Shown here: positions 23,523-42,834 of the stretch, piece after piece
Layout of the letters: every line of letters begins with the position of its first letter
Numbering within the stretch: the first letter of the stretch is position 1
IMG/VR virus record: IMGVR_UViG_2562617057_000003
Strand: one strand, 5' to 3'
DNA length: 47,732 nucleotides
Source: a virus
Lineage: Duplodnaviria > Heunggongvirae > Uroviricota > Caudoviricetes
Position numbers and translations under genes: made by a program
Notes under the pieces: generated by a model
What the model saw: the letters and a program-made list of their open reading frames with translations, nothing else
Databases searched by the model: none
What the model was told of the DNA's origin: nothing

Positions 23523-25434
23523 TCACTCCTCCGGACAGCTTCGCTGCCAGTTCTTCAAGGGTCGGTTGTGCAGTTGCATCCTTGCGGGATGCCGCCAGCA
23601 CAGCCAGATCAAGTTGCCAGCGTTGCACGGACACACGTAATGCCGCATAGGCATACACCAGGCAGTCCAGCGCTTCGTTACGCCGCTTTTTGTTATCCCA
23701 CAACAGACGCATCTTTCCTTTTTCCCACTTTTCCACCAGTTCCTCCGCCACCAGTTGTTGTGCCTCTGTCTGCGAAAAAATCTCCGGATTATCAGGAAAG
23801 CGGATGGCATACGATGTGGCCTCATTCACAGGGGTGGGATCGGCCTTCATTCGGGCATAGAGAATTTCTTTTGCGGTATCCGTCCCCACCTCACACAGAT
23901 ACACACCCCGCTGATTGCGGGTTTTCGGCATGGTGATCACCGGCTTGCCATAGACAGAGGCACCTTTTACCGGCAGTACCCGGAAAACACCGTGTTTTTT
24001 TGACCTCTGATACACGATTTCGCCATCGATCCCCCCGATATCCCAGCAGACACGGGAAATGGTCATTTCGGTACCGTCTGCATGGCGGTATTTTTTATTG
24101 ATCGCCGCATCCACACGTAACAGCGTCTCTTCCTCATCAGGACGTCCCATGATGATGATTTTATCCACCAGAAAGGCTTCCTCTCCCGGAGCCCACCCCC
24201 AGACATACATCTCAAAACGGTTTCGCTGCGAGTCAATGCCCGCCGTCAGATAAACCACCCGGACAGGCACCGTTGCCGTGTAAGGCACAACCTTATCCAT
24301 CAGTACCTGGTGATCGAGTTTTTCGCCCACGGCCTCTTCCCAGGTCTCGCCCAGCGTGGTGTTCACAAAAGTTTTCACGCCGTTGGGATCTTTCAGTGCA
24401 TCCAGCCAGTCACAGACTATCTGTACCCAGGTGGTGAACGGACTGTACGCCGTCCATATATGGAAAGTGATGGAGCGCGGCGGCGGAATTTCATTACCCG
24501 AAGCACTGAAAAACGTCAGACCGTCACGCGTCCACATCCCGGTATTGTCACAAATCCAGCGCCCCCCGGTCTGATCAAGTTCAGACTGACGGATCACGCA
24601 GCCATTATGTTCACACAGGTAATACACCGTTTCCGGTTTACCCTTCTCCCATTTCAGGCCAAACGACGTCGCATCATCGCCAAACTTCAGATACTGCTCC
24701 TCCCCGCAATGAGGGCAAGGGACATAAAACCGCATGAAATGTGCAGATTCATTCGCGGCTTTTTCAATCTGGCAGGAGCCTTTGATTTTTGGCGTTGAAC
24801 CGCGTATGGATTTTGGCCATACCGAACCTTCAATACGTTTATCGCCAAGCAGTGTTGGCGAACCTTCTTTTTCCACATCCGGTTCAAACGAGGAGAGTTC
24901 GTCATAGCAGACCACATCGACAGATTTTTCACGGTAGTTTTTGGCAGCAGCACCACCCAAACACCAGAACCCCACACCAGAGGAAAAACGCTTCAGTGTG
25001 AGCGTATTATCCCGGTGTTTCCGGCCCAGCCAGGGAGAAAGTTTTTTCAGGCAAGGAACATCACGAATTGTTGCTTCCACGTGAGACTTCATAAAATCTT
25101 CAGCAGCTGAGTCCGTCGGCTGAAAAAGAAGAGTGTTGCGGGATTTGTGCTCAATAAAATACCCGATCACACCAAGCACCATTTTTGTATAACCAACACG
25201 GGCAGATTTAATCAGGTTAACTGTACGAATCTCGTCATTGCCCATGCAGTTCATGATGGCGACCTGAAACGGCAGCGTTTTCCATTCCCCCTCACCGTAT
25301 GACGATTCTTTAGGCAGGTAATAATTTTGATCGGCCCATTCTACAGCCGTCACCGGCAATACCCTGACCAGTGGCTGCAGTGCGATAGTGACTGCCACCA
25401 TCATATTACTCAGTTGTTGTTCTGATATATTCAT
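23506..25434 (-). CDS. A: Terminase large subunit A
   Basis: Starts MNISEQQLSNMM...TAVEWADQNYYLPKESSYGEGEWKTLPFQ (lambda A-like) at ATG 25434; overlaps the 3' end of Nu1 as in lambda; ORF-track start is an upstream extension. Confidence 0.93.
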   Translation of the reverse strand: MNISEQQLSNMMVAVTIALQPLVRVLPVTAVEWADQNYYLPKESSYGEGEWKTLPFQVAIMNCMGNDEIRTVNLIKSARVGYTKMVLGVIGYFIEHKSRNTLLFQPTDSAAEDFMKSHVEATIRDVPCLKKLSPWLGRKHRDNTLTLKRFSSGVGFWCLGGAAAKNYREKSVDVVCYDELSSFEPDVEKEGSPTLLGDKRIEGSVWPKSIRGSTPKIKGSCQIEKAANESAHFMRFYVPCPHCGEEQYLKFGDDATSFGLKWEKGKPETVYYLCEHNGCVIRQSELDQTGGRWICDNTGMWTRDGLTFFSASGNEIPPPRSITFHIWTAYSPFTTWVQIVCDWLDALKDPNGVKTFVNTTLGETWEEAVGEKLDHQVLMDKVVPYTATVPVRVVYLTAGIDSQRNRFEMYVWGWAPGEEAFLVDKIIIMGRPDEEETLLRVDAAINKKYRHADGTEMTISRVCWDIGGIDGEIVYQRSKKHGVFRVLPVKGASVYGKPVITMPKTRNQRGVYLCEVGTDTAKEILYARMKADPTPVNEATSYAIRFPDNPEIFSQTEAQQLVAEELVEKWEKGKMRLLWDNKKRRNEALDCLVYAYAALRVSVQRWQLDLAVLAASRKDATAQPTLEELAAKLSGGVNGYSR

Positions 25435-25915
25435 CGAGTAAATCCGGTAATTTATCCCCCGCACGCGCGCACTGATTCGCTCCCTTAGCAATAAGGATTT
25501 TCAGATGATCAATATGACGCGGCGTTAAATCCGGGAACTGTCGTTGCATGGACAAAGGAATGGAGTCAAGCGTACTGGATAAAGCCATCGCCAGCTTACT
25601 AAGGGCAAAAATACAAAATCCGCTATCAATAAGATTTCCTTTTGACACCTGATTTTTTAACTGCTGTGCGACAGCCTGTTCTGCGGTCAGTTCCCATCTC
25701 GCAATGAGTAGTTTCTCTTCATAATCCTCTTCCGGATCACCATCAGGCACATCGTTTTTACTTCTTCTCAGATACGATATGTAAAAATCACGCCAGGCAT
25801 CCAGATCCAGTTGTCCTCGCTTGTTCGAAACCGGGGCACCCGGCAGTTTCTGTAATCTGCGAAGCTGGCGATCGGTCAGACTCAAATGCCTGGCAACTTC
25901 AGTCTGAGTAGCCAC
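25406..25915 (-). CDS. Nu1: Terminase small subunit Nu1
   Basis: 169 aa with N-terminal HTH; C-terminal part resembles lambda Nu1; GTG start with RBS GAGGTG; immediately upstream of A. Confidence 0.82.
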   Translation of the reverse strand: MATQTEVARHLSLTDRQLRRLQKLPGAPVSNKRGQLDLDAWRDFYISYLRRSKNDVPDGDPEEDYEEKLLIARWELTAEQAVAQQLKNQVSKGNLIDSGFCIFALSKLAMALSSTLDSIPLSMQRQFPDLTPRHIDHLKILIAKGANQCARAGDKLPDLLDEYIRTTTE

Positions 25916-26039
25916 TGTTCACCTCGCCAAAAAATCTCCCCTCATGCGTTTTAAACATGCATCTTGCGAACAACTTTATGAAACGCGGCATATATGTCCG
26001 GTTTGAGTGTTCAATTTTTGCGCATGTCCGGTTCACAGA

Positions 26040-26165
26040 AAGCGCATTTCTATATTTTTCAAATGGTTAACCTTCAGAGAAACCGGACATGGTTTCCGAA
26101 AAATTTTCATAAATAGTGAAATTCTGCGCCGCTCCCGCCCCGTGGCAGGCCACCCCACCGGGAGG
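26040..26165 (-). other. cos site region (cosN-like GGGCGGGAGCGG, cosB toward Nu1)
   Basis: Reverse complement of 26100-26140 reads GGGCGGGAGCGGCGCAGAATTTCACTATTTATGAAAATTTT, close to the lambda left-end sequence; about 200 bp upstream of Nu1. Confidence 0.6.
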
Positions 26166-26564
26166 ACCCGTCAGCCTGACAGCCATGACGAACGTCTGAT
26201 ACAGCGCCCTGCATGAATGACATCGGGATAATCCAGAAAGGAATAGCATCGTACCCACAAGAATCAGTGTAAGTGTCCTGTTTCTTCCACCCCCGCACAG
26301 GACTGGCGAGCATGAGGGACAAACCCGCGAACCATAAACGCGGTAAAAACCCGGTGTGCATCGTTTTTGATTATTCCCGCACACTCGCGCAGAAGGAGTT
26401 CCCCGTCGGGCTACGGTCATGGTTAATGCGGGAATACAGCGACGATACAGCGCATGATGTGTCAGGCCTGAATACCTTTATCCGTTAAAAGGGATATCAG
26501 TTAAGTTATCCCGTGTAGGGTATAAGCCATTATCAAGCCCACCAGTAGATGGGCTTTGTAATGG

Positions 26565-26822
26565 CTACTTCGCTTTTGCTTCCGCTCGCTTACGCCGGCG
26601 CTCTTCTTTCCTCTCGGCTTTTGCCATGTCCATGAATGCCTGCATGATCGAGTTCCGCATCATGTAGCTAACAAAGTGATGATTGACACAGCCGTTGAGG
26701 CGCAGCTGCTCGCCAAACTCATCCACCGAGGCCAATGCTTCCATCATGCCCTTCTCGCCTTTCATGAACTCTGAGAAGTCGCGCCCCGCTCTGGAGGCGC
26801 ATTCAATGACACGATCACTCAT
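26565..26822 (-). CDS. Hypothetical 85-aa protein translationally coupled to the KilA-N gene
   Basis: ATG overlaps the stop of the upstream gene (ATGA); Lys/Arg/Glu-rich C-terminal tail; no family recognised. Confidence 0.55.
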   Translation of the reverse strand: MSDRVIECASRAGRDFSEFMKGEKGMMEALASVDEFGEQLRLNGCVNHHFVSYMMRNSIMQAFMDMAKAERKEERRRKRAEAKAK

Positions 26823-27316
26823 CCCGGAAGCCCGGGGATCGTTATCTGCAGCTGGTTAGCCAGGGAGTTAATCTCAGCGACCAACACTGGCTTCGTATAG
26901 CGCCATGCCGCCAGCCCTTGTCCACAGAAGCTCGCCATATCTTTTTTCTGATCAAACTCATGACACTTCATATTGAGCTGCGCACTTAAGCTGTTGCGAT
27001 GCTGAAGTTCTCCGGTGAAGTAGTCATCCAGGACTTTATAGGCTGCATATTTAAATCCGGGGTTTAGCCATGCTGCATAATCATAAGCAACAAACTTCCC
27101 GCCATATGTTCCACCGTGTACACCGCGCTCAGTAAAAACCACAGATTCGTGGTTTTTCTCCAGCTCGGCTAAGAACTCTTTGGTCTGCTTGTTTCGCAGG
27201 TAGTGGTACGGAGATTCAGATTCACTTTTACCACTGGCTTTCCACATATCAGTGAGGCAGATCATTCCTGATTCATCAACACGGATCGGTGTATTAAAAA
27301 GCGTGATTGCTTTCAT
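26819..27316 (-). CDS. KilA-N domain protein
   Basis: 165 aa; N-terminal MKAITLFNTPIRVDESGMICLTDMWKASGKS...YHYLRNKQTKEFLAEL resembles the KilA-N DNA-binding domain. Confidence 0.7.
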   Translation of the reverse strand: MKAITLFNTPIRVDESGMICLTDMWKASGKSESESPYHYLRNKQTKEFLAELEKNHESVVFTERGVHGGTYGGKFVAYDYAAWLNPGFKYAAYKVLDDYFTGELQHRNSLSAQLNMKCHEFDQKKDMASFCGQGLAAWRYTKPVLVAEINSLANQLQITIPGLPG

Positions 27317-27520: not shown

Positions 27521-27958
27521 TTATTTCAGGCATTGCGTCCTGATGTATTCCTGCAGGTAGTTAACCTGCGCGGTTATCCTGTCGATTCCACTTCGGAGAC
27601 GGTAATAATTGAGTTCAGCATCTGCTGTAAGTCTTGGGCTTTCTCCATAGCCCATGCTGCTGGCTCCGGTCGTTGACTTTGCACAGGTGGCGGCGACTTG
27701 CAGGCGCTTACGACCAGCAGAAACATCAGCACGGAGACTTTCGATAGTCGCGTTAGCATCAGCAAGCTCCTTTGTGTATCTGGCGTCGAGTTCTGCTACA
27801 TCACGTTGACGCTTCTGCATATCAGAGATGATGGATGTGGCCTTATCGCGCTGCTCTTTGTAGGTAATGGCGTTACTACGGTAATGGCTGGTGGCCTGCC
27901 ACAACGCACCGCAGGCCACCAGCAACGCAATAATCACGCCATGAAGAACACGATTCAT
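27521..27958 (-). CDS. Rz: Rz inner-membrane spanin
   Basis: [40 protein letters not shown]... lambda Rz-like with N-terminal TM segment; ATG at 27958. Confidence 0.88.
27574..27765 (-). CDS. Rz1: Rz1 outer-membrane lipoprotein spanin, embedded in Rz in the +1 frame
   Basis: 63 aa with lipoprotein signal and lipobox (LLVVSAC), Pro-rich mature part; nested inside Rz. Confidence 0.8.
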
Positions 27959-28172
27959 ATCACCACCAGCGGATTGCCCAGACCAGAACAGCAATGGACA
28001 CAATACGAATAGCAAAGGCCGCTGCTCTTGTTAAATCCAGACTGGCTGGAGTCTCCACTTCAATGCCTTTCATAATGGACAACCTCAGAAAAAATTTTTT
28101 ATACTTTCTCACAGGGAAAACACCTCCCTACCCATAATTTCTCCCTTGCCTTACTCAAGGTCAGAAAACACA

Positions 28173-28210
28173 AAACCCCGACTGTTGGTGCAATCGGGGT
28201 TTTTACTTTT
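28173..28210 (-). terminator. Strong hairpin with flanking T tracts between endolysin and Rz
   Basis: 8-bp stem AAACCCCG/CGGGGTTT with a 14-nt loop, followed by TTTTACTTTT on plus and TGTGTTTTC on minus. Confidence 0.45.
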
Positions 28211-28293
28211 ATTCACTTACGTTTTGCCGGTTAGCAGGATTTCGTGTTATCCGCCCGCGTTGACCAACCTCATTTTTCAGCGAAATATTCTGC

Positions 28294-28827
28294 TTATCTG
28301 TCGATACCCCAGCATGTCAGCGCCGCTTCCTGATCCCGACGAATAACCTGACCGTAACAGTTATTTGAACGAATACGGCAGTCTCTGCCACCATCCTTAA
28401 TCCACCAGCGAATCGCCTCGCATGCGCCCTTACGATCACCGGCATTCAGCCGCTTATAAAACGTCGACGGGAAACACTTACCGGGGCCAATGTTATAGGG
28501 GCAAAATGACGCTATACCCGCTTTTTGTGGTTCGGTCAGTGGTACTTTAATATTGCGCTCCACCCATGCCAGCGCCTTATCACGTTCAATGGCGTTAACC
28601 TGGTCGCATTTTTCCTTCGACAGTTTCATACCGGGAAAAACGGGTTTACCATCCACCGTCGTGGCACCCCGACAGATGGTCCAGATGCCGGAACCATCGC
28701 GGTATGCCGTAGTGTGGTTACCTTCTTTTTCATCCAGAAACTGGTCGAGAATATCAGGCGCAGGCGCACCGATAGCAATCAGTGCCAGAACGGCAGCCGA
28801 CAGGCCATATCTGATTTTTACGTTCAT
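28294..28827 (-). CDS. R: Phage lysozyme (endolysin) with N-terminal signal-anchor/SAR-like segment
   Basis: 177 aa; MNVKIRYGLSAAVLALIAIGAPAPD hydrophobic N-terminus, then ...EGNHTTAYRDGSGIWTICRGATTVDGK... lysozyme motifs; resembles K-12 prophage lysozymes. Confidence 0.92.
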   Translation of the reverse strand: MNVKIRYGLSAAVLALIAIGAPAPDILDQFLDEKEGNHTTAYRDGSGIWTICRGATTVDGKPVFPGMKLSKEKCDQVNAIERDKALAWVERNIKVPLTEPQKAGIASFCPYNIGPGKCFPSTFYKRLNAGDRKGACEAIRWWIKDGGRDCRIRSNNCYGQVIRRDQEAALTCWGIDR

Positions 28828-32152: not shown

Positions 32153-32311
32153 GATAACGCCCTCTGGTTGATGGATTTAACTATCACCACCGTCAGGTTC
32201 CAATCATTGGGTGGTGAGACGTACAGGGTTGGAACTACCGGATCAACCAACCGGCGAGCCTTTCAGCTCCCCCATACGCCCCACCATTATTCAGATGTGC
32301 GTGTGCTTACG

Positions 32312-32338
32312 ACAATAAAAAACACGCTCGCGGCGTGT
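32312..32338 (-). terminator. tR'-like intrinsic terminator about 80 nt downstream of the late promoter
   Basis: Minus strand ACACGCCGCGAGCGTGT (6-bp stem) followed by TTTTTTATT. Confidence 0.6.
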
Positions 32339-32400
32339 GTCTGTCGCGGTTGAATATCCGGGGTTCCAATCCCGACGCCAGATTTTGCTGACGCGCGAGG

Positions 32401-32430
32401 AATATAGCCCCGGACAATGTATATGGTCAA
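32401..32430 (-). promoter_or_regulatory. Candidate late promoter pR' just downstream of Q
   Basis: Minus strand TTGACC - 18 nt - TATATT, starting 5 nt after the Q stop. Confidence 0.5.
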
Positions 32431-34701: not shown

Positions 34702-34857
34702 TTACTCCTCAGGTTCGTAAGCTGTGAAGACAGCGACCTCCGTCTGGCCGGTTCGGATTCGTACCTCGCAGAGGTCTTTCCTCGTTACCAGTGCCGTCAC
34801 AATGACGGTAATACAGATGACGATCAGGGCGACTAACATCGCCTTTTGCTGCTTCAT
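34702..34857 (-). CDS. hok: Hok/Gef-family type I toxin
   Basis: 51 aa MKQQKAMLVALIVICITVIVTALVTRKDLCEVRIRTGQTEVAVFTAYEPEE, near-identical to E. coli HokD/RelF-type toxins. Confidence 0.9.
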   Translation of the reverse strand: MKQQKAMLVALIVICITVIVTALVTRKDLCEVRIRTGQTEVAVFTAYEPEE

Positions 34858-35068
34858 AGCCTGCTTCTCCTTGCCTTTCGGCACGTAAGAGGCTAACCTA
34901 GATTTGCCGTTCATAGATTGAGCCTCAGATTAATGTTAAGCGTCTTGCCGGACGCGTAATGTTAACTGGGGCTTTTCTCTATCTGCCTTTTGGTGTTCAT
35001 GCCTGAGACAGATAGCCTCAAGCACCCGCTGCAATTCTACTTAACTCTCCTTTTCCCGCAAACCGTTT
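34858..35068 (-). promoter_or_regulatory. hok mRNA leader (mok-like upstream ATG; expected site of antisense Sok RNA)
   Basis: About 210-nt leader with an in-frame upstream ATG at 34914 and several hairpins, as in hok/sok loci; Sok promoter not pinpointed. Confidence 0.45.
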
Positions 35069-42348: not shown

Positions 42349-42834
42349 AAGTGAATTTTGTGATGCGGTGAATGCGGCTCAGCGCACGCGGCACAGTTAA
42401 AAAGCGATTAGTTCCCCCGTATCGGGTGGTTATGGGTTTCCCTGTATCCGGCGTTAATTGTTAACTGGTTAACGTCACCTGGAGGCACCAGGCACCGCAT
42501 CAACAAAGTTCACTTCGGTGATGAAAGGAAAGAGAAAATGTTGAATGTAGCTATTGAAAACCAGAACGGGTGGAATTATAGTGCACCTGCACCTTATAAA
42601 ACGGGTGCCGGGCGTGGAAACCCGAACGTTACTCGAGCGCATAGCCGCGCTGAAGCGGTTTTTTTATGCGTAATGCACAGCTCCATTCAAATTATGGTGG
42701 GATGTGCAGGGCAGTCGCAAGACTGGCCGGGTTCTCGAGTGACCGGTATTTCCACCCCTGTACGTCTCACCACCCTTATGGTCGTGGAAAACCTCGGTGG
42801 TGAGTTAATTAACTTATCACTCGAGGATGCCATC

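What the first reader, a model, noticed from the sequence alone, without database searches (positions are those of the whole stretch)
25916..26564. cos region retains lambda-like core sequence; a 71-aa plus-strand ORF of uncertain reality lies beside it
The cosN-proximal sequence is strongly lambda-like although Nu1 is diverged at its N-terminus. An ORF at 26273-26488 on the plus strand has no clear RBS.
Basis: partly seen in the sequence, partly recalled or inferred. Interest (0 to 1): 0.2.

Follow-up and report, generated by a model that had tools for sequence, protein, structure and literature searches.

The report
Lambda-like cos beside conserved RNA element
This is an ordinary lambda-type DNA-packaging (cos) site of an E. 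coli prophage, and the small ORF beside it is probably not a gene: it lies on the strand opposite a ~180-base conserved, apparently folded RNA element that phage lambda and most E. coli genomes carry unannotated.

Summary
The window is a lambdoid prophage with its late genes on the minus strand. 25916-26170 is a genuine lambda-type cos. It has a cosQ heptamer, a 12-nt cosN-like core (7/12 identical to lambda) and a 27/32-identical cosN-R3 spacer. Its cosB has its own repeats (ATGTCCGGTT x3) and an IHF-like site, next to a Nu1 whose N-terminal 72 aa do not match lambda's. This is a known kind and unremarkable.

The 71-aa ORF exists, and PGAP calls a 58-aa version. It shows no coding signature: 16 synonymous versus 38 non-synonymous variants plus 1 stop, no third-position excess, and no family hit. 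The ATG is absent in 29/65 independent contexts and the C-termini vary.

What is conserved is a sharply bounded ~180-nt module (26275-26456). It is present in lambda (about 46866-47035), DLP12, 933W-like Stx phages and 85% of complete E. coli genomes, always between the lysis genes and the packaging genes. It is nearly always unannotated and absent from Rfam.

A multi-helix fold is kept in 98% of cells on the late (minus) strand versus 88% on the ORF strand (102 versus 5 G.U cells), with a few compensatory changes.

Best reading: a structured RNA embedded in the late transcript, function unknown. Caveats: no expression data, shallow covariation, non-significant folding z-scores.

The parts
25406..25915 (-). 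Terminase small subunit (Nu1 homologue). The C-terminal half is lambda-like; the N-terminal DNA-binding part is not.
   Evidence: Pfam Phage_Nu1 hits residues 71-150. BLASTP against lambda Nu1 gives 44% identity over residues 73-167 only. PGAP names it 'terminase small subunit' in the near-identical genome.
25994..26090 (-). cosB-like region. It holds three R-like repeats ATGTCCGGTT (25994-26003 and 26024-26033 on +, 26081-26090 inverted) and an IHF-consensus-like site at 26057-26069 between the inverted copy and the next one.
   Evidence: the repeat finder D1, I3 and I4. The IHF-like site TTTCAAATGGTTA has 1 mismatch to WATCAANNNNTTR and is the only such site in 25916-26150. The order matches lambda R3-I1-R2-R1 (established knowledge). 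The repeat sequences are unrelated to lambda's R sites.
26097..26128 (-). cosN-to-R3 spacer, 27/32 identical to lambda bases 13-44.
   Evidence: Register alignment with the lambda left end. The same stretch matches the cos sites of K-12 DLP12 and Qin at 79% over 48 nt.
26129..26140 (-). Inferred cosN cohesive-end core, rc GGGCGGGAGCGG (lambda: GGGCGGCGACCT, 7/12 identical).
   Evidence: Alignment to the lambda ends. The deposited linear record of phage mEp460_4F5 is cut 5 nt to the left of this position...GGCCTG | CCACGGGGCGGGAGCG.... The actual nick positions are not shown.
26163..26169 (-). cosQ-like heptamer GGGTCCT.
   Evidence: Identical to lambda 48473-48479, and 29 nt versus 30 nt from the inferred nick.
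26122..26275 (.). cos-left flank ('module A'). It is shared at ~94% with mEp460-type phages that have a different cosB, and shows no coding signature.
   Evidence: Homology breakpoints at 26122 and 26275. The late-strand ORF that underlies PHROG 17397 shows 16 synonymous versus 32 non-synonymous variants, flat across codon positions.
26275..26456 (-). Conserved ~180-nt module with a predicted multi-helix fold on the late strand.
- P1: 26448-26442 / 26364-26358
- P2: 26436-26426 / 26382-26372
- P3: 26415-26411 / 26392-26388
- P4: 26410-26408 / 26403-26401
- Exposed loop AACUCCUU: 26400-26393
- GGG 26352-26350 / CCC 26318-26316, enclosing a variable hairpin
- H3: 26303-26297 / 26281-26275, with loop GGAAGAAAC
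   Evidence: Sharp homology boundaries with at least 5 different flanks on each side. RNAalifold consensus. 98.0% of cells paired, 0/500 shuffles reach this, and slid controls give 35-61%. The opposite strand pairs at 87.9%, with 102 versus 5 G.U cells. The covariance model finds one full-length copy in the window (223 bits) plus copies in lambda, DLP12 and Sakai Sp9. No Rfam match at E<=5.
26273..26488 (+). 71-aa ORF (58 aa from the ATG at 26312). Probably not a functional protein gene.
   Evidence: No Pfam, NCBIfam or PHROG hit. Homologues occur only in Escherichia/Shigella, with lengths of 39-91 aa. The ATG is missing in 29/65 contexts and the C-termini vary. 16 synonymous / 38 non-synonymous / 1 stop variants, at codon positions 24/13/18. 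A stop lies in frame in the lambda/DLP12 version.
26491..26559 (.). Two hairpins between the element and the convergent 85-aa gene. GGGATA/TATCCC (26491-26512) is followed by T4 on the late strand. AGCCCA/TGGGCT (26536-26555) is followed by TTTGT on the + strand. Together they look like a bidirectional terminator.
   Evidence: Sequence. The second stem shows compensatory replacement among relatives, AAGCCCA/TGGGCTT versus AAGCCACT/AGTGGCTT. Ayreon's record annotates a terminator here. Neither hairpin was called by the simple scan.
26565..26822 (-). 85-aa late-strand gene (PHROG 875, function unknown), the last gene before the element.
   Evidence: PHROG hit at 3e-54. PGAP CDS in the near-identical genome.

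Best explanation
25916-26170 is the cos site of a lambda-family prophage.

**The cos site.** It carries cosQ, a cosN-like core and the cosN-R3 spacer in lambda's register. These are followed by a cosB with its own repeat sequence (ATGTCCGGTT x3, one inverted) and an IHF-like site. The repeats are presumably read by the divergent N-terminal domain of this phage's Nu1. This gives the same mechanism as lambda with a different cosB/Nu1 specificity, as in phage 21.

**The ORF and the module under it.** The ORF at 26273-26488 is most likely a chance open frame. It lies on the antisense strand of a discrete, sharply bounded ~180-nt module (26275-26456). The functional form of that module is most likely a folded RNA on the late-gene (minus) strand. 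It would be transcribed only as part of the Q-antiterminated late transcript, at the junction between the lysis genes and the packaging genes.

**Proposed fold.** A long irregular hairpin (P1-P2-P3-P4) exposes a pyrimidine-rich, anti-Shine-Dalgarno-like loop (CUCCUU, CUUCU or CCUUA). It is followed by a variable hairpin and then a hairpin with the conserved loop GGAAGAAAC.

**Proposed role (inferred, not shown).** It may be a processing or stability element that separates lysis and packaging mRNAs, for example an RNase III or RNase E substrate. Alternatively, or in addition, it may be a processed riboregulator that pairs through the exposed loop.

**Shown:** conservation, module boundaries, position, strand-asymmetric pairing, and lack of coding signature.
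**Inferred:** that it is RNA rather than single-stranded DNA, that it is expressed, and what it does.

**Confidence by component.** cos assignment about 0.85; ORF not a functional gene about 0.75; structured late-strand RNA about 0.5. The overall figure given is for the whole statement.
For: **cos**
- Alignment to the lambda ends and subsite spacing.
- Repeats and the IHF-like site.
- Nu1 and gpA homology.
- The same cosN and cosQ occur in mEp460-type phages with a different cosB, and a deposited linear record is cut within 5 nt of the inferred nick.

**Module distribution and position**
- The core is 84% identical to lambda 46868-46974 and to DLP12.
- Full-length covariance-model hits occur in lambda, DLP12, Sakai Sp9 and others.
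- It is found in 432 phage records.
- It is found in 4635/5426 complete E. coli genomes, up to 11 copies each, mostly unannotated.
- In the seven annotated or sequenced contexts examined it lies on the late strand after the last lysis-region gene and before terminase or cos, across Nu1/A-type and 933W-type packaging modules.

**Structure**
- RNAalifold consensus.
- 98.0% of cells paired, 0/500 shuffles reach this, slid controls 35-61%.
- Compensatory changes: C-G<->G-C in P2 (lambda type), and U-A<->G-C in H3 (12 versus 12 sequences, with 3 G.U intermediates).
- L215 reads CCAG/CTGG where the other copies read CCC/GGG in P4 (seen by eye in the alignment; in the fixed columns these cells count as unpaired).
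- Late strand 98.0% paired versus 87.9% on the opposite strand; 102 versus 5 G.U cells.
- One-sided transitions at Watson-Crick pairs: 13 keep the pair and 3 break it, p=0.011.
- Unpaired columns show no transition strand bias, 12 versus 12.

**Not coding**
-.
- The late-strand frames are broken by stops, by indels that are not multiples of three, and by loss of the start codon.
Against: - There are no expression data for either strand.
- Single-sequence folding energies are no better than shuffles (z = -0.18 on the late strand, -0.73 on the + strand). The window's own MFE is a different fold.
- The middle domain is thermodynamically unremarkable in every variant.
- Covariation is shallow. Only 3 pairs change on both sides, the model's effective sequence number is 1.53, and sequences are 83% identical per column.
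- 12 of 25 one-sided variant types at Watson-Crick pairs break the pair.
- No conserved promoter or terminator flanks the module.
- It is not among the Hfq-bound EcOnc RNAs of uninduced Sakai.
- It is not mentioned in the lambda RIL-seq preprint.
- It is restricted to Escherichia, Shigella and a few Salmonella phages.
- For cos, the cohesive-end core is only 7/12 identical, and the nick positions are inferred rather than measured.
Confidence: 0.5

Rival explanations
1. The 58/71-aa ORF is a real, lineage-restricted small protein gene on the + strand, and the DNA is conserved because of it.
For: PGAP annotates it. The identical protein WP_001205133.1 appears in two different contexts. The frame stays open through the 30-codon core in most variants. 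A + strand terminator-like hairpin follows it. Small moron genes on this strand are common at this position, for example bor and ynfO/ylcI.
Against: Variants split 16 synonymous / 38 non-synonymous / 1 stop, against a random synonymous expectation of 23%, with no third-position excess. The ATG and the first 13 codons are absent or replaced in 29/65 contexts, and there are at least 4 different C-termini. There are in-frame stops in the lambda/DLP12, L013b and CFT073 versions. There is no SD and no promoter. No Pfam, NCBIfam or PHROG family matches, and no DUF3950 hit was found. Substitutions respect base pairing on the other strand.
Confidence: 0.12
2. The module acts at the level of double-stranded DNA. 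It could be an upstream regulatory or promoter region for leftward (anti-late) morons such as bor and the DUF1398 genes. Alternatively it could be a conserved 'linker' kept because it mediates homologous recombination between lambdoid modules.
For: In lambda, DLP12 and Stx2 phage I it sits directly upstream of bor and directly after the DUF1398 gene on the anti-late strand. In Qin only the H3 part survives, abutting ydfO. Mosaic breakpoints fall exactly at its edges and also inside it. L211 is a lambda-type/933W-type hybrid.
Against: Many copies, including the one in this window, have neither bor nor a DUF1398 gene beside them. A double-stranded DNA site gives no reason for strand-asymmetric G.U tolerance or for compensatory stem changes. 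A mere recombination linker would not need conserved loops.
Confidence: 0.17
3. The fold forms in single-stranded DNA of the late-sense strand, not in RNA. An example would be a priming or single-strand initiation signal used during rolling-circle replication.
For: The strand asymmetry and stems are equally compatible with G.T-tolerant DNA hairpins. The module lacks its own promoter and terminator.
Against: No lambdoid function of this kind is known. Lambda replication and packaging are well reconstituted without such a site (established knowledge, not tested here). The position is tied to transcription-unit structure (after the lysis genes, before the packaging genes) in phages with different replication modules.
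Confidence: 0.05
4. The module has no function. It is recently spread, slowly diverging DNA that hitch-hikes between lysis and packaging modules, and the apparent structure is an over-reading of a shallow alignment.
For: The taxonomic range is narrow. Identity is high. Folding z-scores are non-significant. Only three double-change pairs were found. The tool's own caveat says related sequences can beat all shuffles without any structure.
Against: The module is retained with sharp boundaries next to at least 5 unrelated left flanks and at least 5 unrelated right flanks, and across three packaging-module types. It is present in 85% of complete E. coli genomes, often in several prophages each. Transitions in stems are biased toward keeping pairs whereas those in loops are not. 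98% pairing compares with 35-61% for slid controls.
Confidence: 0.11

Closest known systems
Bacteriophage lambda cos (cosQ-cosN-cosB) with terminase gpNu1/gpA
   Same: The order of subsites is the same and lies immediately upstream of Nu1 and A homologues. The cosQ heptamer is identical. The cosN-R3 spacer is 27/32 identical. cosB has three R-type repeats, one of them inverted, and an IHF-like site. gpA is 66% identical.
   Different: The cohesive-end core is only 7/12 identical. The R repeats (ATGTCCGGTT) are unrelated to lambda's, and both distal copies share one orientation. The N-terminal 72 aa of Nu1 are unrelated to lambda's.
Phage 21-type altered cosB/small-subunit specificity (established knowledge, not tested here)
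   Same: The packaging machinery is lambda-like, but cosB repeats and the small-subunit DNA-binding domain have co-diverged. mEp460-type phages share this window's cosN and cosQ but carry yet another cosB.
   Different: Sequence comparison with phage 21 itself was not run. Specificity is inferred from co-variation of Nu1 and cosB only.
RNase III-processed intercistronic hairpins of phage mRNAs (T7 R sites, lambda sib and N-leader) (established knowledge)
   Same: A long irregular hairpin with internal loops sits between functional gene blocks of a long phage transcript. It has no promoter or terminator of its own.
   Different: No cleavage data exist and there is no sequence relationship. This module has two further domains and conserved loop motifs.
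Prophage sRNAs of EHEC (HnrS/EcOnc10-12; AgvB/AsxR; StxS)
   Same: They are lambdoid-prophage non-coding RNAs in the late region. In Sakai Sp9, HnrS lies immediately next to the module.
   Different: Those are 50-75-nt Hfq-bound RNAs with their own ends and intrinsic terminators, on the anti-late strand or at pR'. This module is ~180 nt, on the late strand, absent from the EcOnc list, and has no Rfam hit.
Small + strand 'moron' proteins at the same map position (bor; YlcI/YnfO, DUF3950)
   Same: They are short genes on the anti-late strand between the lysis genes and cos.
   Different: The ORF here has no DUF3950 or any other family hit. By eye its sequence is unrelated to YnfO (no direct comparison was run). 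It has no coding signature.

Membership tests
lambda-type cos site | The site lies immediately upstream of adjacent Nu1 and A terminase homologues, downstream of the lysis genes. | tested here: met
   Gene order. Nu1 is 44% identical to lambda's over its C-terminal half and gpA is 66% identical.
lambda-type cos site | cosN: a 12-nt G+C-rich nicking core at the homologous position. | tested here: inconclusive
   GGGCGGGAGCGG versus GGGCGGCGACCT, 7/12 identical, with conserved flanks. A related phage record is cut 5 nt away. Nicking was not measured.
lambda-type cos site | cosQ heptamer about 30 nt upstream of the nick. | tested here: met
   GGGTCCT is identical and lies 29 nt versus 30 nt from the nick.
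lambda-type cos site | cosB: three small-subunit binding repeats with an IHF site between the first two. | tested here: met
   ATGTCCGGTT occurs three times, once inverted. An IHF-like site with 1 mismatch lies at 26057-26069. The sequences differ from lambda's R sites, which implies a different specificity.
lambda-type cos site | Packaged DNA ends with 12-nt 5' cohesive termini at this site. | not testable with these tools
   This needs end sequencing of virion DNA.
protein-coding gene (58/71-aa ORF) | Purifying selection on the encoded protein: an excess of synonymous, third-position changes. | tested here: not met
   16 synonymous / 38 non-synonymous / 1 stop, at codon positions 24/13/18, against a random synonymous fraction of 0.23.
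protein-coding gene (58/71-aa ORF) | Conserved start, stop and length among homologues. | tested here: not met
   The ATG is absent in 29/65 contexts, there are at least 4 C-terminal variants, and some versions are truncated to 22-23 codons. Database 'homologues' are 39-91 aa long.
protein-coding gene (58/71-aa ORF) | Translation and transcription signals. | tested here: not met
   No SD precedes either start. No promoter-like site lies upstream on the + strand.
protein-coding gene (58/71-aa ORF) | Membership of a described protein family, including YlcI/YnfO (DUF3950), which occupies this map position elsewhere. | tested here: not met
   No Pfam, NCBIfam or PHROG hit at E<=0.1. The YnfO translation shows no evident similarity by eye.
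structured non-coding RNA (late strand) | A secondary structure conserved across diverged copies, with compensatory changes. | tested here: met
   98.0% of cells paired, 0/500 shuffles reach this, slid controls 35-61%. 3 pairs change on both sides and 14 change on one side only and stay paired. The depth is modest.
structured non-coding RNA (late strand) | Strand specificity, shown by G.U tolerance on one strand only. | tested here: met
   102 versus 5 G.U cells; 98.0% versus 87.9% paired. 13 versus 3 transitions, p=0.011. No bias in loops.
structured non-coding RNA (late strand) | Thermodynamic stability beyond shuffled sequence. | tested here: not met
   z = -0.18 on the late strand and -0.73 on the + strand. 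Domain 2 gives z between -1.3 and +0.4.
structured non-coding RNA (late strand) | A detectable transcript with defined ends. | not testable with these tools
   No expression data are available. It is not in the Sakai Hfq-CRAC list from uninduced cells.
any Rfam family | A covariance-model match. | tested here: not met
   No hit at E<=5 in 25800-26900. None at gathering score in the window or in Sakai Sp9 at this place.

The most novel reading that the evidence does not exclude
Lambdoid phages, including lambda itself (about 46866-47035, r-strand), carry a previously undescribed ~180-nt structured RNA. It is embedded in the late transcript at the boundary between the lysis genes and the packaging genes. 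It has an exposed anti-Shine-Dalgarno-like loop and a conserved GGAAGAAAC loop. It would act as a processing or stability signal, or as a processed riboregulator, during lytic growth. It is present, unannotated, in about 85% of complete E. coli genomes.
Probability: 0.4. Interest if true: 0.65.

Novelty: new variant of a known kind. Interest (0 to 1): 0.42.

Why it matters
The cos site itself adds only another cosB/Nu1 specificity variant to a well-understood system.

The module under the doubtful ORF matters more. It is one of the most widespread unannotated conserved sequences in E. coli prophages, with up to 11 copies per genome. It also sits in lambda, the best-studied phage, in a stretch with no assigned function.

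If it is a functional late-transcript RNA, it would add a new element to the classic picture of lambda late gene expression, and it is directly testable in lambda. It would also correct a recurrent mis-annotation: three mutually incompatible 'hypothetical protein' calls on both strands in public records.

Tried and rejected
**Searches that found nothing or did not fit**
- Rfam gave nothing at this locus.
- Known prophage and lambda sRNAs do not correspond:
  - Tree 2014 anti-sRNAs lie at the pR' moron site.
  - PreS/LPR1, LPR2 and 6S lie elsewhere in lambda.
  - Pas sRNAs lie near Q and the holin.
- EcOnc04/05 (~222 nt by Northern) looked promising by size, but they map upstream of the 1.85-kb ORF near pR'.
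- HnrS/EcOnc12 seemed to overlap the module in Sakai Sp9. Calibrating the old coordinates with the AgvB Rfam hit (a shift of about +128) puts it just downstream, on the other strand.

**Protein-coding alternatives**
- YlcI/YnfO homology for the ORF was rejected.
- Late-strand ORFs (the 84-aa and 117-aa frames, PHROG 17397, Ayreon's 'putative late gene regulator', Stx2-I ORF-84) were rejected. Their starts are lost, indels are not multiples of three, they run through cosN, and substitutions are flat across codon positions.

**Other negative checks**
- A pseudoknot between GTGTGC and GCACAC was dropped, because the lambda-type change is compensated in P2 instead.
- A conserved promoter 5' of the module was not found; the flanks are unrelated among variants.
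- A terminator or attenuator reading of GUGUGC/GCACAC+U5 is not conserved in lambda.
- Thermodynamic support is absent.
- There is no second copy in the window.
- Literature searches for a mapped bor promoter and for lambda ribosome-profiling data on this interval returned nothing usable.

Full report
**Setting.** The window is a lambdoid prophage of E. coli. Bases 25400-26900 are 99.9% identical to the chromosome of strain VL46. Late genes run on the minus strand: lysozyme 28294-28827, Rz 27521-28015, a KilA-N protein 26819-27316 and an 85-aa PHROG-875 protein 26565-26822. The finding region follows, and then come Nu1 (25406-25915) and the large terminase subunit. The finding therefore lies where lambda has cos.

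**The cos site.** Read in lambda's orientation, the region aligns with the joined lambda ends.
- The cosQ heptamer GGGTCCT (26163-26169) is identical to lambda's and lies 29 nt from the inferred nick, against 30 nt in lambda.
- The 12-nt core (26129-26140) reads GGGCGGGAGCGG against lambda's GGGCGGCGACCT, 7/12 identical.
- The following 32 nt are 27/32 identical, including CTATTTATGAAAATTTT.
- Beyond that, similarity to lambda stops, but the architecture does not. ATGTCCGGTT occurs at 25994-26003 and 26024-26033, and inverted at 26081-26090.
- The only IHF-consensus-like site in the interval (TTTCAAATGGTTA, one mismatch) lies between the inverted copy and the next one. This is the lambda order R3-I1-R2-R1.

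Nu1 matches lambda only over residues 73-167 (44% identity). The N-terminal 72 residues, which in lambda form the DNA-binding domain (established knowledge), give no alignment. gpA is 66% identical.

mEp460-type phages carry the same cosQ and cosN next to a different cosB. The deposited linear record of mEp460_4F5 is cut 5 nt to the left of the lambda-aligned nick. The same 48 nt match the cos sites of DLP12 and Qin at 79%.

This is a lambda-type cos with its own cosB/Nu1 specificity. It is a known kind, and only the nick positions remain inferred.

**The ORF.** The frame 26273-26488 is open, and PGAP annotates the 58-aa version from the ATG at 26312. Other annotators called incompatible ORFs on the other strand over the same DNA, or the same small + strand ORF.

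The evidence against a real gene is as follows.
- No Pfam, NCBIfam or PHROG family matches.
- The only database relatives are 65 Escherichia/Shigella clusters of 39-91 aa.
- In 65 distinct contexts collected by a DNA pattern, independent of the ORF, the ATG and the first 13 codons are missing or replaced in 29. There are at least four different C-termini, and the lambda/DLP12 version stops after 22-23 codons.
- Distinct variants in the conserved core split 16 synonymous, 38 non-synonymous and 1 stop. The random synonymous expectation is 23%. They fall 24/13/18 on codon positions 1/2/3.
- There is no SD and no promoter-like site.

I conclude the ORF is probably not a functional gene.

**What is conserved instead.** Homology among relatives breaks sharply at 26122, at 26275/6 and near 26456-26482. 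Between 26275 and 26456 lies a module that keeps its sequence while both flanks are replaced by at least five unrelated alternatives each.

Its distribution is wide.
- Its core is 84% identical to lambda 46868-46974 and to DLP12, between borD and ybcV.
- A covariance model built here finds full-length copies in lambda (46866-47035), DLP12, CFT073, Sakai Sp9 and others, and exactly one in the window.
- BLAST finds it in 432 phage records.
- It occurs in 4635 of 5426 complete E. coli genomes, with a median of 2 and up to 11 copies. All but one of the 12 sampled rows are unannotated.
- A species-level genome scan found it only in Escherichia, plus a few tiny contigs that look like contamination.

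In every context examined it has the orientation of the late genes. It lies after the last lysis-region gene and before the packaging genes, whether these are Nu1/A-type or 933W-type.

**Evidence for a fold on the late strand.** I aligned 27 diverse copies (A1). RNAalifold predicts a long hairpin, a middle domain and a 3' hairpin.

I added two apical helices seen by eye and counted 36 pairs.
- 98.0% of 959 cells form standard pairs. No shuffle of 500 reaches this, and partners slid by 1-3 columns give 35-61%.
- Both-sided changes occur in P2 (C-G to G-C in the lambda type) and in H3 (U-A versus G-C, 12 sequences each, with three G.U intermediates; and G-C to U-A).
- By eye, L215 replaces CCC/GGG with CCAG/CTGG in P4. 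The fixed columns count these cells as unpaired.
- The middle hairpin is replaced wholesale by different hairpins in several lineages.

The pattern is strand-specific.
- The same pairs read on the ORF strand are only 87.9% paired, with 102 G.U cells on the late strand against 5 on the other.
- Among one-sided transitions at Watson-Crick pairs, 13 keep the pair on the late strand and 3 break it (p=0.011).
- Unpaired columns show no such bias (12 versus 12).

The exposed internal loop is always pyrimidine-rich and anti-SD-like: AACUCCUU, ACUUCU, CCUCC or CCUUAU. The H3 loop always contains GGAAGAAAC.

**Weaknesses.**
- The sequences are close relatives. Mean column identity is 83% and the effective sequence number is 1.53.
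- Only three pairs change on both sides.
- 12 of 25 one-sided variant types break a pair.
- The window's own sequence does not fold better than shuffles on either strand, and its MFE is a different fold.
- The middle domain is thermodynamically unremarkable.
- No conserved promoter or terminator flanks the module, so it would be transcribed only as part of the Q-antiterminated late transcript. That would also explain its absence from the Hfq-bound sRNA list of uninduced Sakai.
- I found no paper that describes it, but the library searched is incomplete.

**Mechanism.** My best reading, at roughly even odds, is a structured RNA of the late transcript at the junction of the lysis and packaging genes. 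The extended, interrupted P1-P2 helix resembles the RNase III sites that punctuate other phage transcripts. The conserved exposed loops would suit pairing with Shine-Dalgarno regions or a loop-loop contact. Neither is shown.

The rivals are:
- a real small protein (about 0.12);
- a double-stranded DNA role, either as upstream region of the leftward morons bor and DUF1398 or as a recombination linker (about 0.17);
- a single-stranded DNA signal (about 0.05);
- functionless hitch-hiking DNA (about 0.11).

**Verdict.** The cos site is ordinary. The ORF is best removed from consideration as a gene. The interesting object is the unannotated module beneath it, which lambda shares and where the hypothesis can be tested directly.

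Noticed in passing
window 34852-35027 (-); 32207-32407 (-); 42589-42777 (+): Rfam gathering-score hits elsewhere in the window: a sok antitoxin RNA, and two isrK + C4-antisense pairs in opposite orientations about 10 kb apart. This suggests duplicated, inverted P1/P7-type immunity (ant-control) modules and a hok/sok locus inside the prophage.
   Followed up: no
L220 (Sakai Sp9), record 1779650-1779715, minus strand: The Hfq-bound sRNA HnrS (EcOnc12) appears to lie immediately downstream of the conserved module, on the opposite strand. It has a CUUCU seed and a strong terminator (CTGCTGTG...CACGGCAG+T7). The published coordinates (NC_002695.1) are about 128 nt lower than in NC_002695.2, as calibrated with the AgvB hit.
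   Followed up: partly
L087 (K-12 Qin) 5467-5497: Qin keeps only the 3' hairpin (H3) of the module, abutting the stop of ydfO (DUF1398). In lambda, DLP12 and CFT073 the full module also directly follows the DUF1398 gene on the anti-late strand. The association is unexplained.
   Followed up: partly
L211 (Stx2 converting phage I) 1495-1680: This copy is a hybrid: the 5' half is lambda-type and the 3' half is 933W-type. It carries a G.G mismatch in helix P2, at the position where lambda has the compensated G-C pair. A recombination junction therefore lies inside the module.
   Followed up: no
L224, L225, L229 (genome contigs): The module turns up on tiny contigs (351-4030 bp) of assemblies labelled Pseudomonas yangonensis, Thiomicrorhabdus heinhorstiae and a Nanosynbacter MAG. 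These are most likely E. coli phage or lambda contamination of those assemblies.
   Followed up: no
window 27989-28293, compared with L004 5116-5650: The window has a ~305-nt gap between Rz and the lysozyme gene. The otherwise near-identical VL46 prophage instead carries a RelE/ParD toxin-antitoxin pair between KilA-N and Rz. The lysis-region accessory content differs between close relatives.
   Followed up: no
window 26491-26559: Two hairpins lie between the module and the convergent 85-aa gene. One has a T-run on the late strand and one has a T-run on the + strand. The second shows compensatory stem replacement among relatives. This is a likely bidirectional terminator that would keep the module silent unless RNA polymerase is Q-modified.
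   Followed up: partly
E. coli genomes plasmids: 696 of the 12,212 places that match the module lie on plasmids. These may be phage-plasmids; they were not examined.
   Followed up: no
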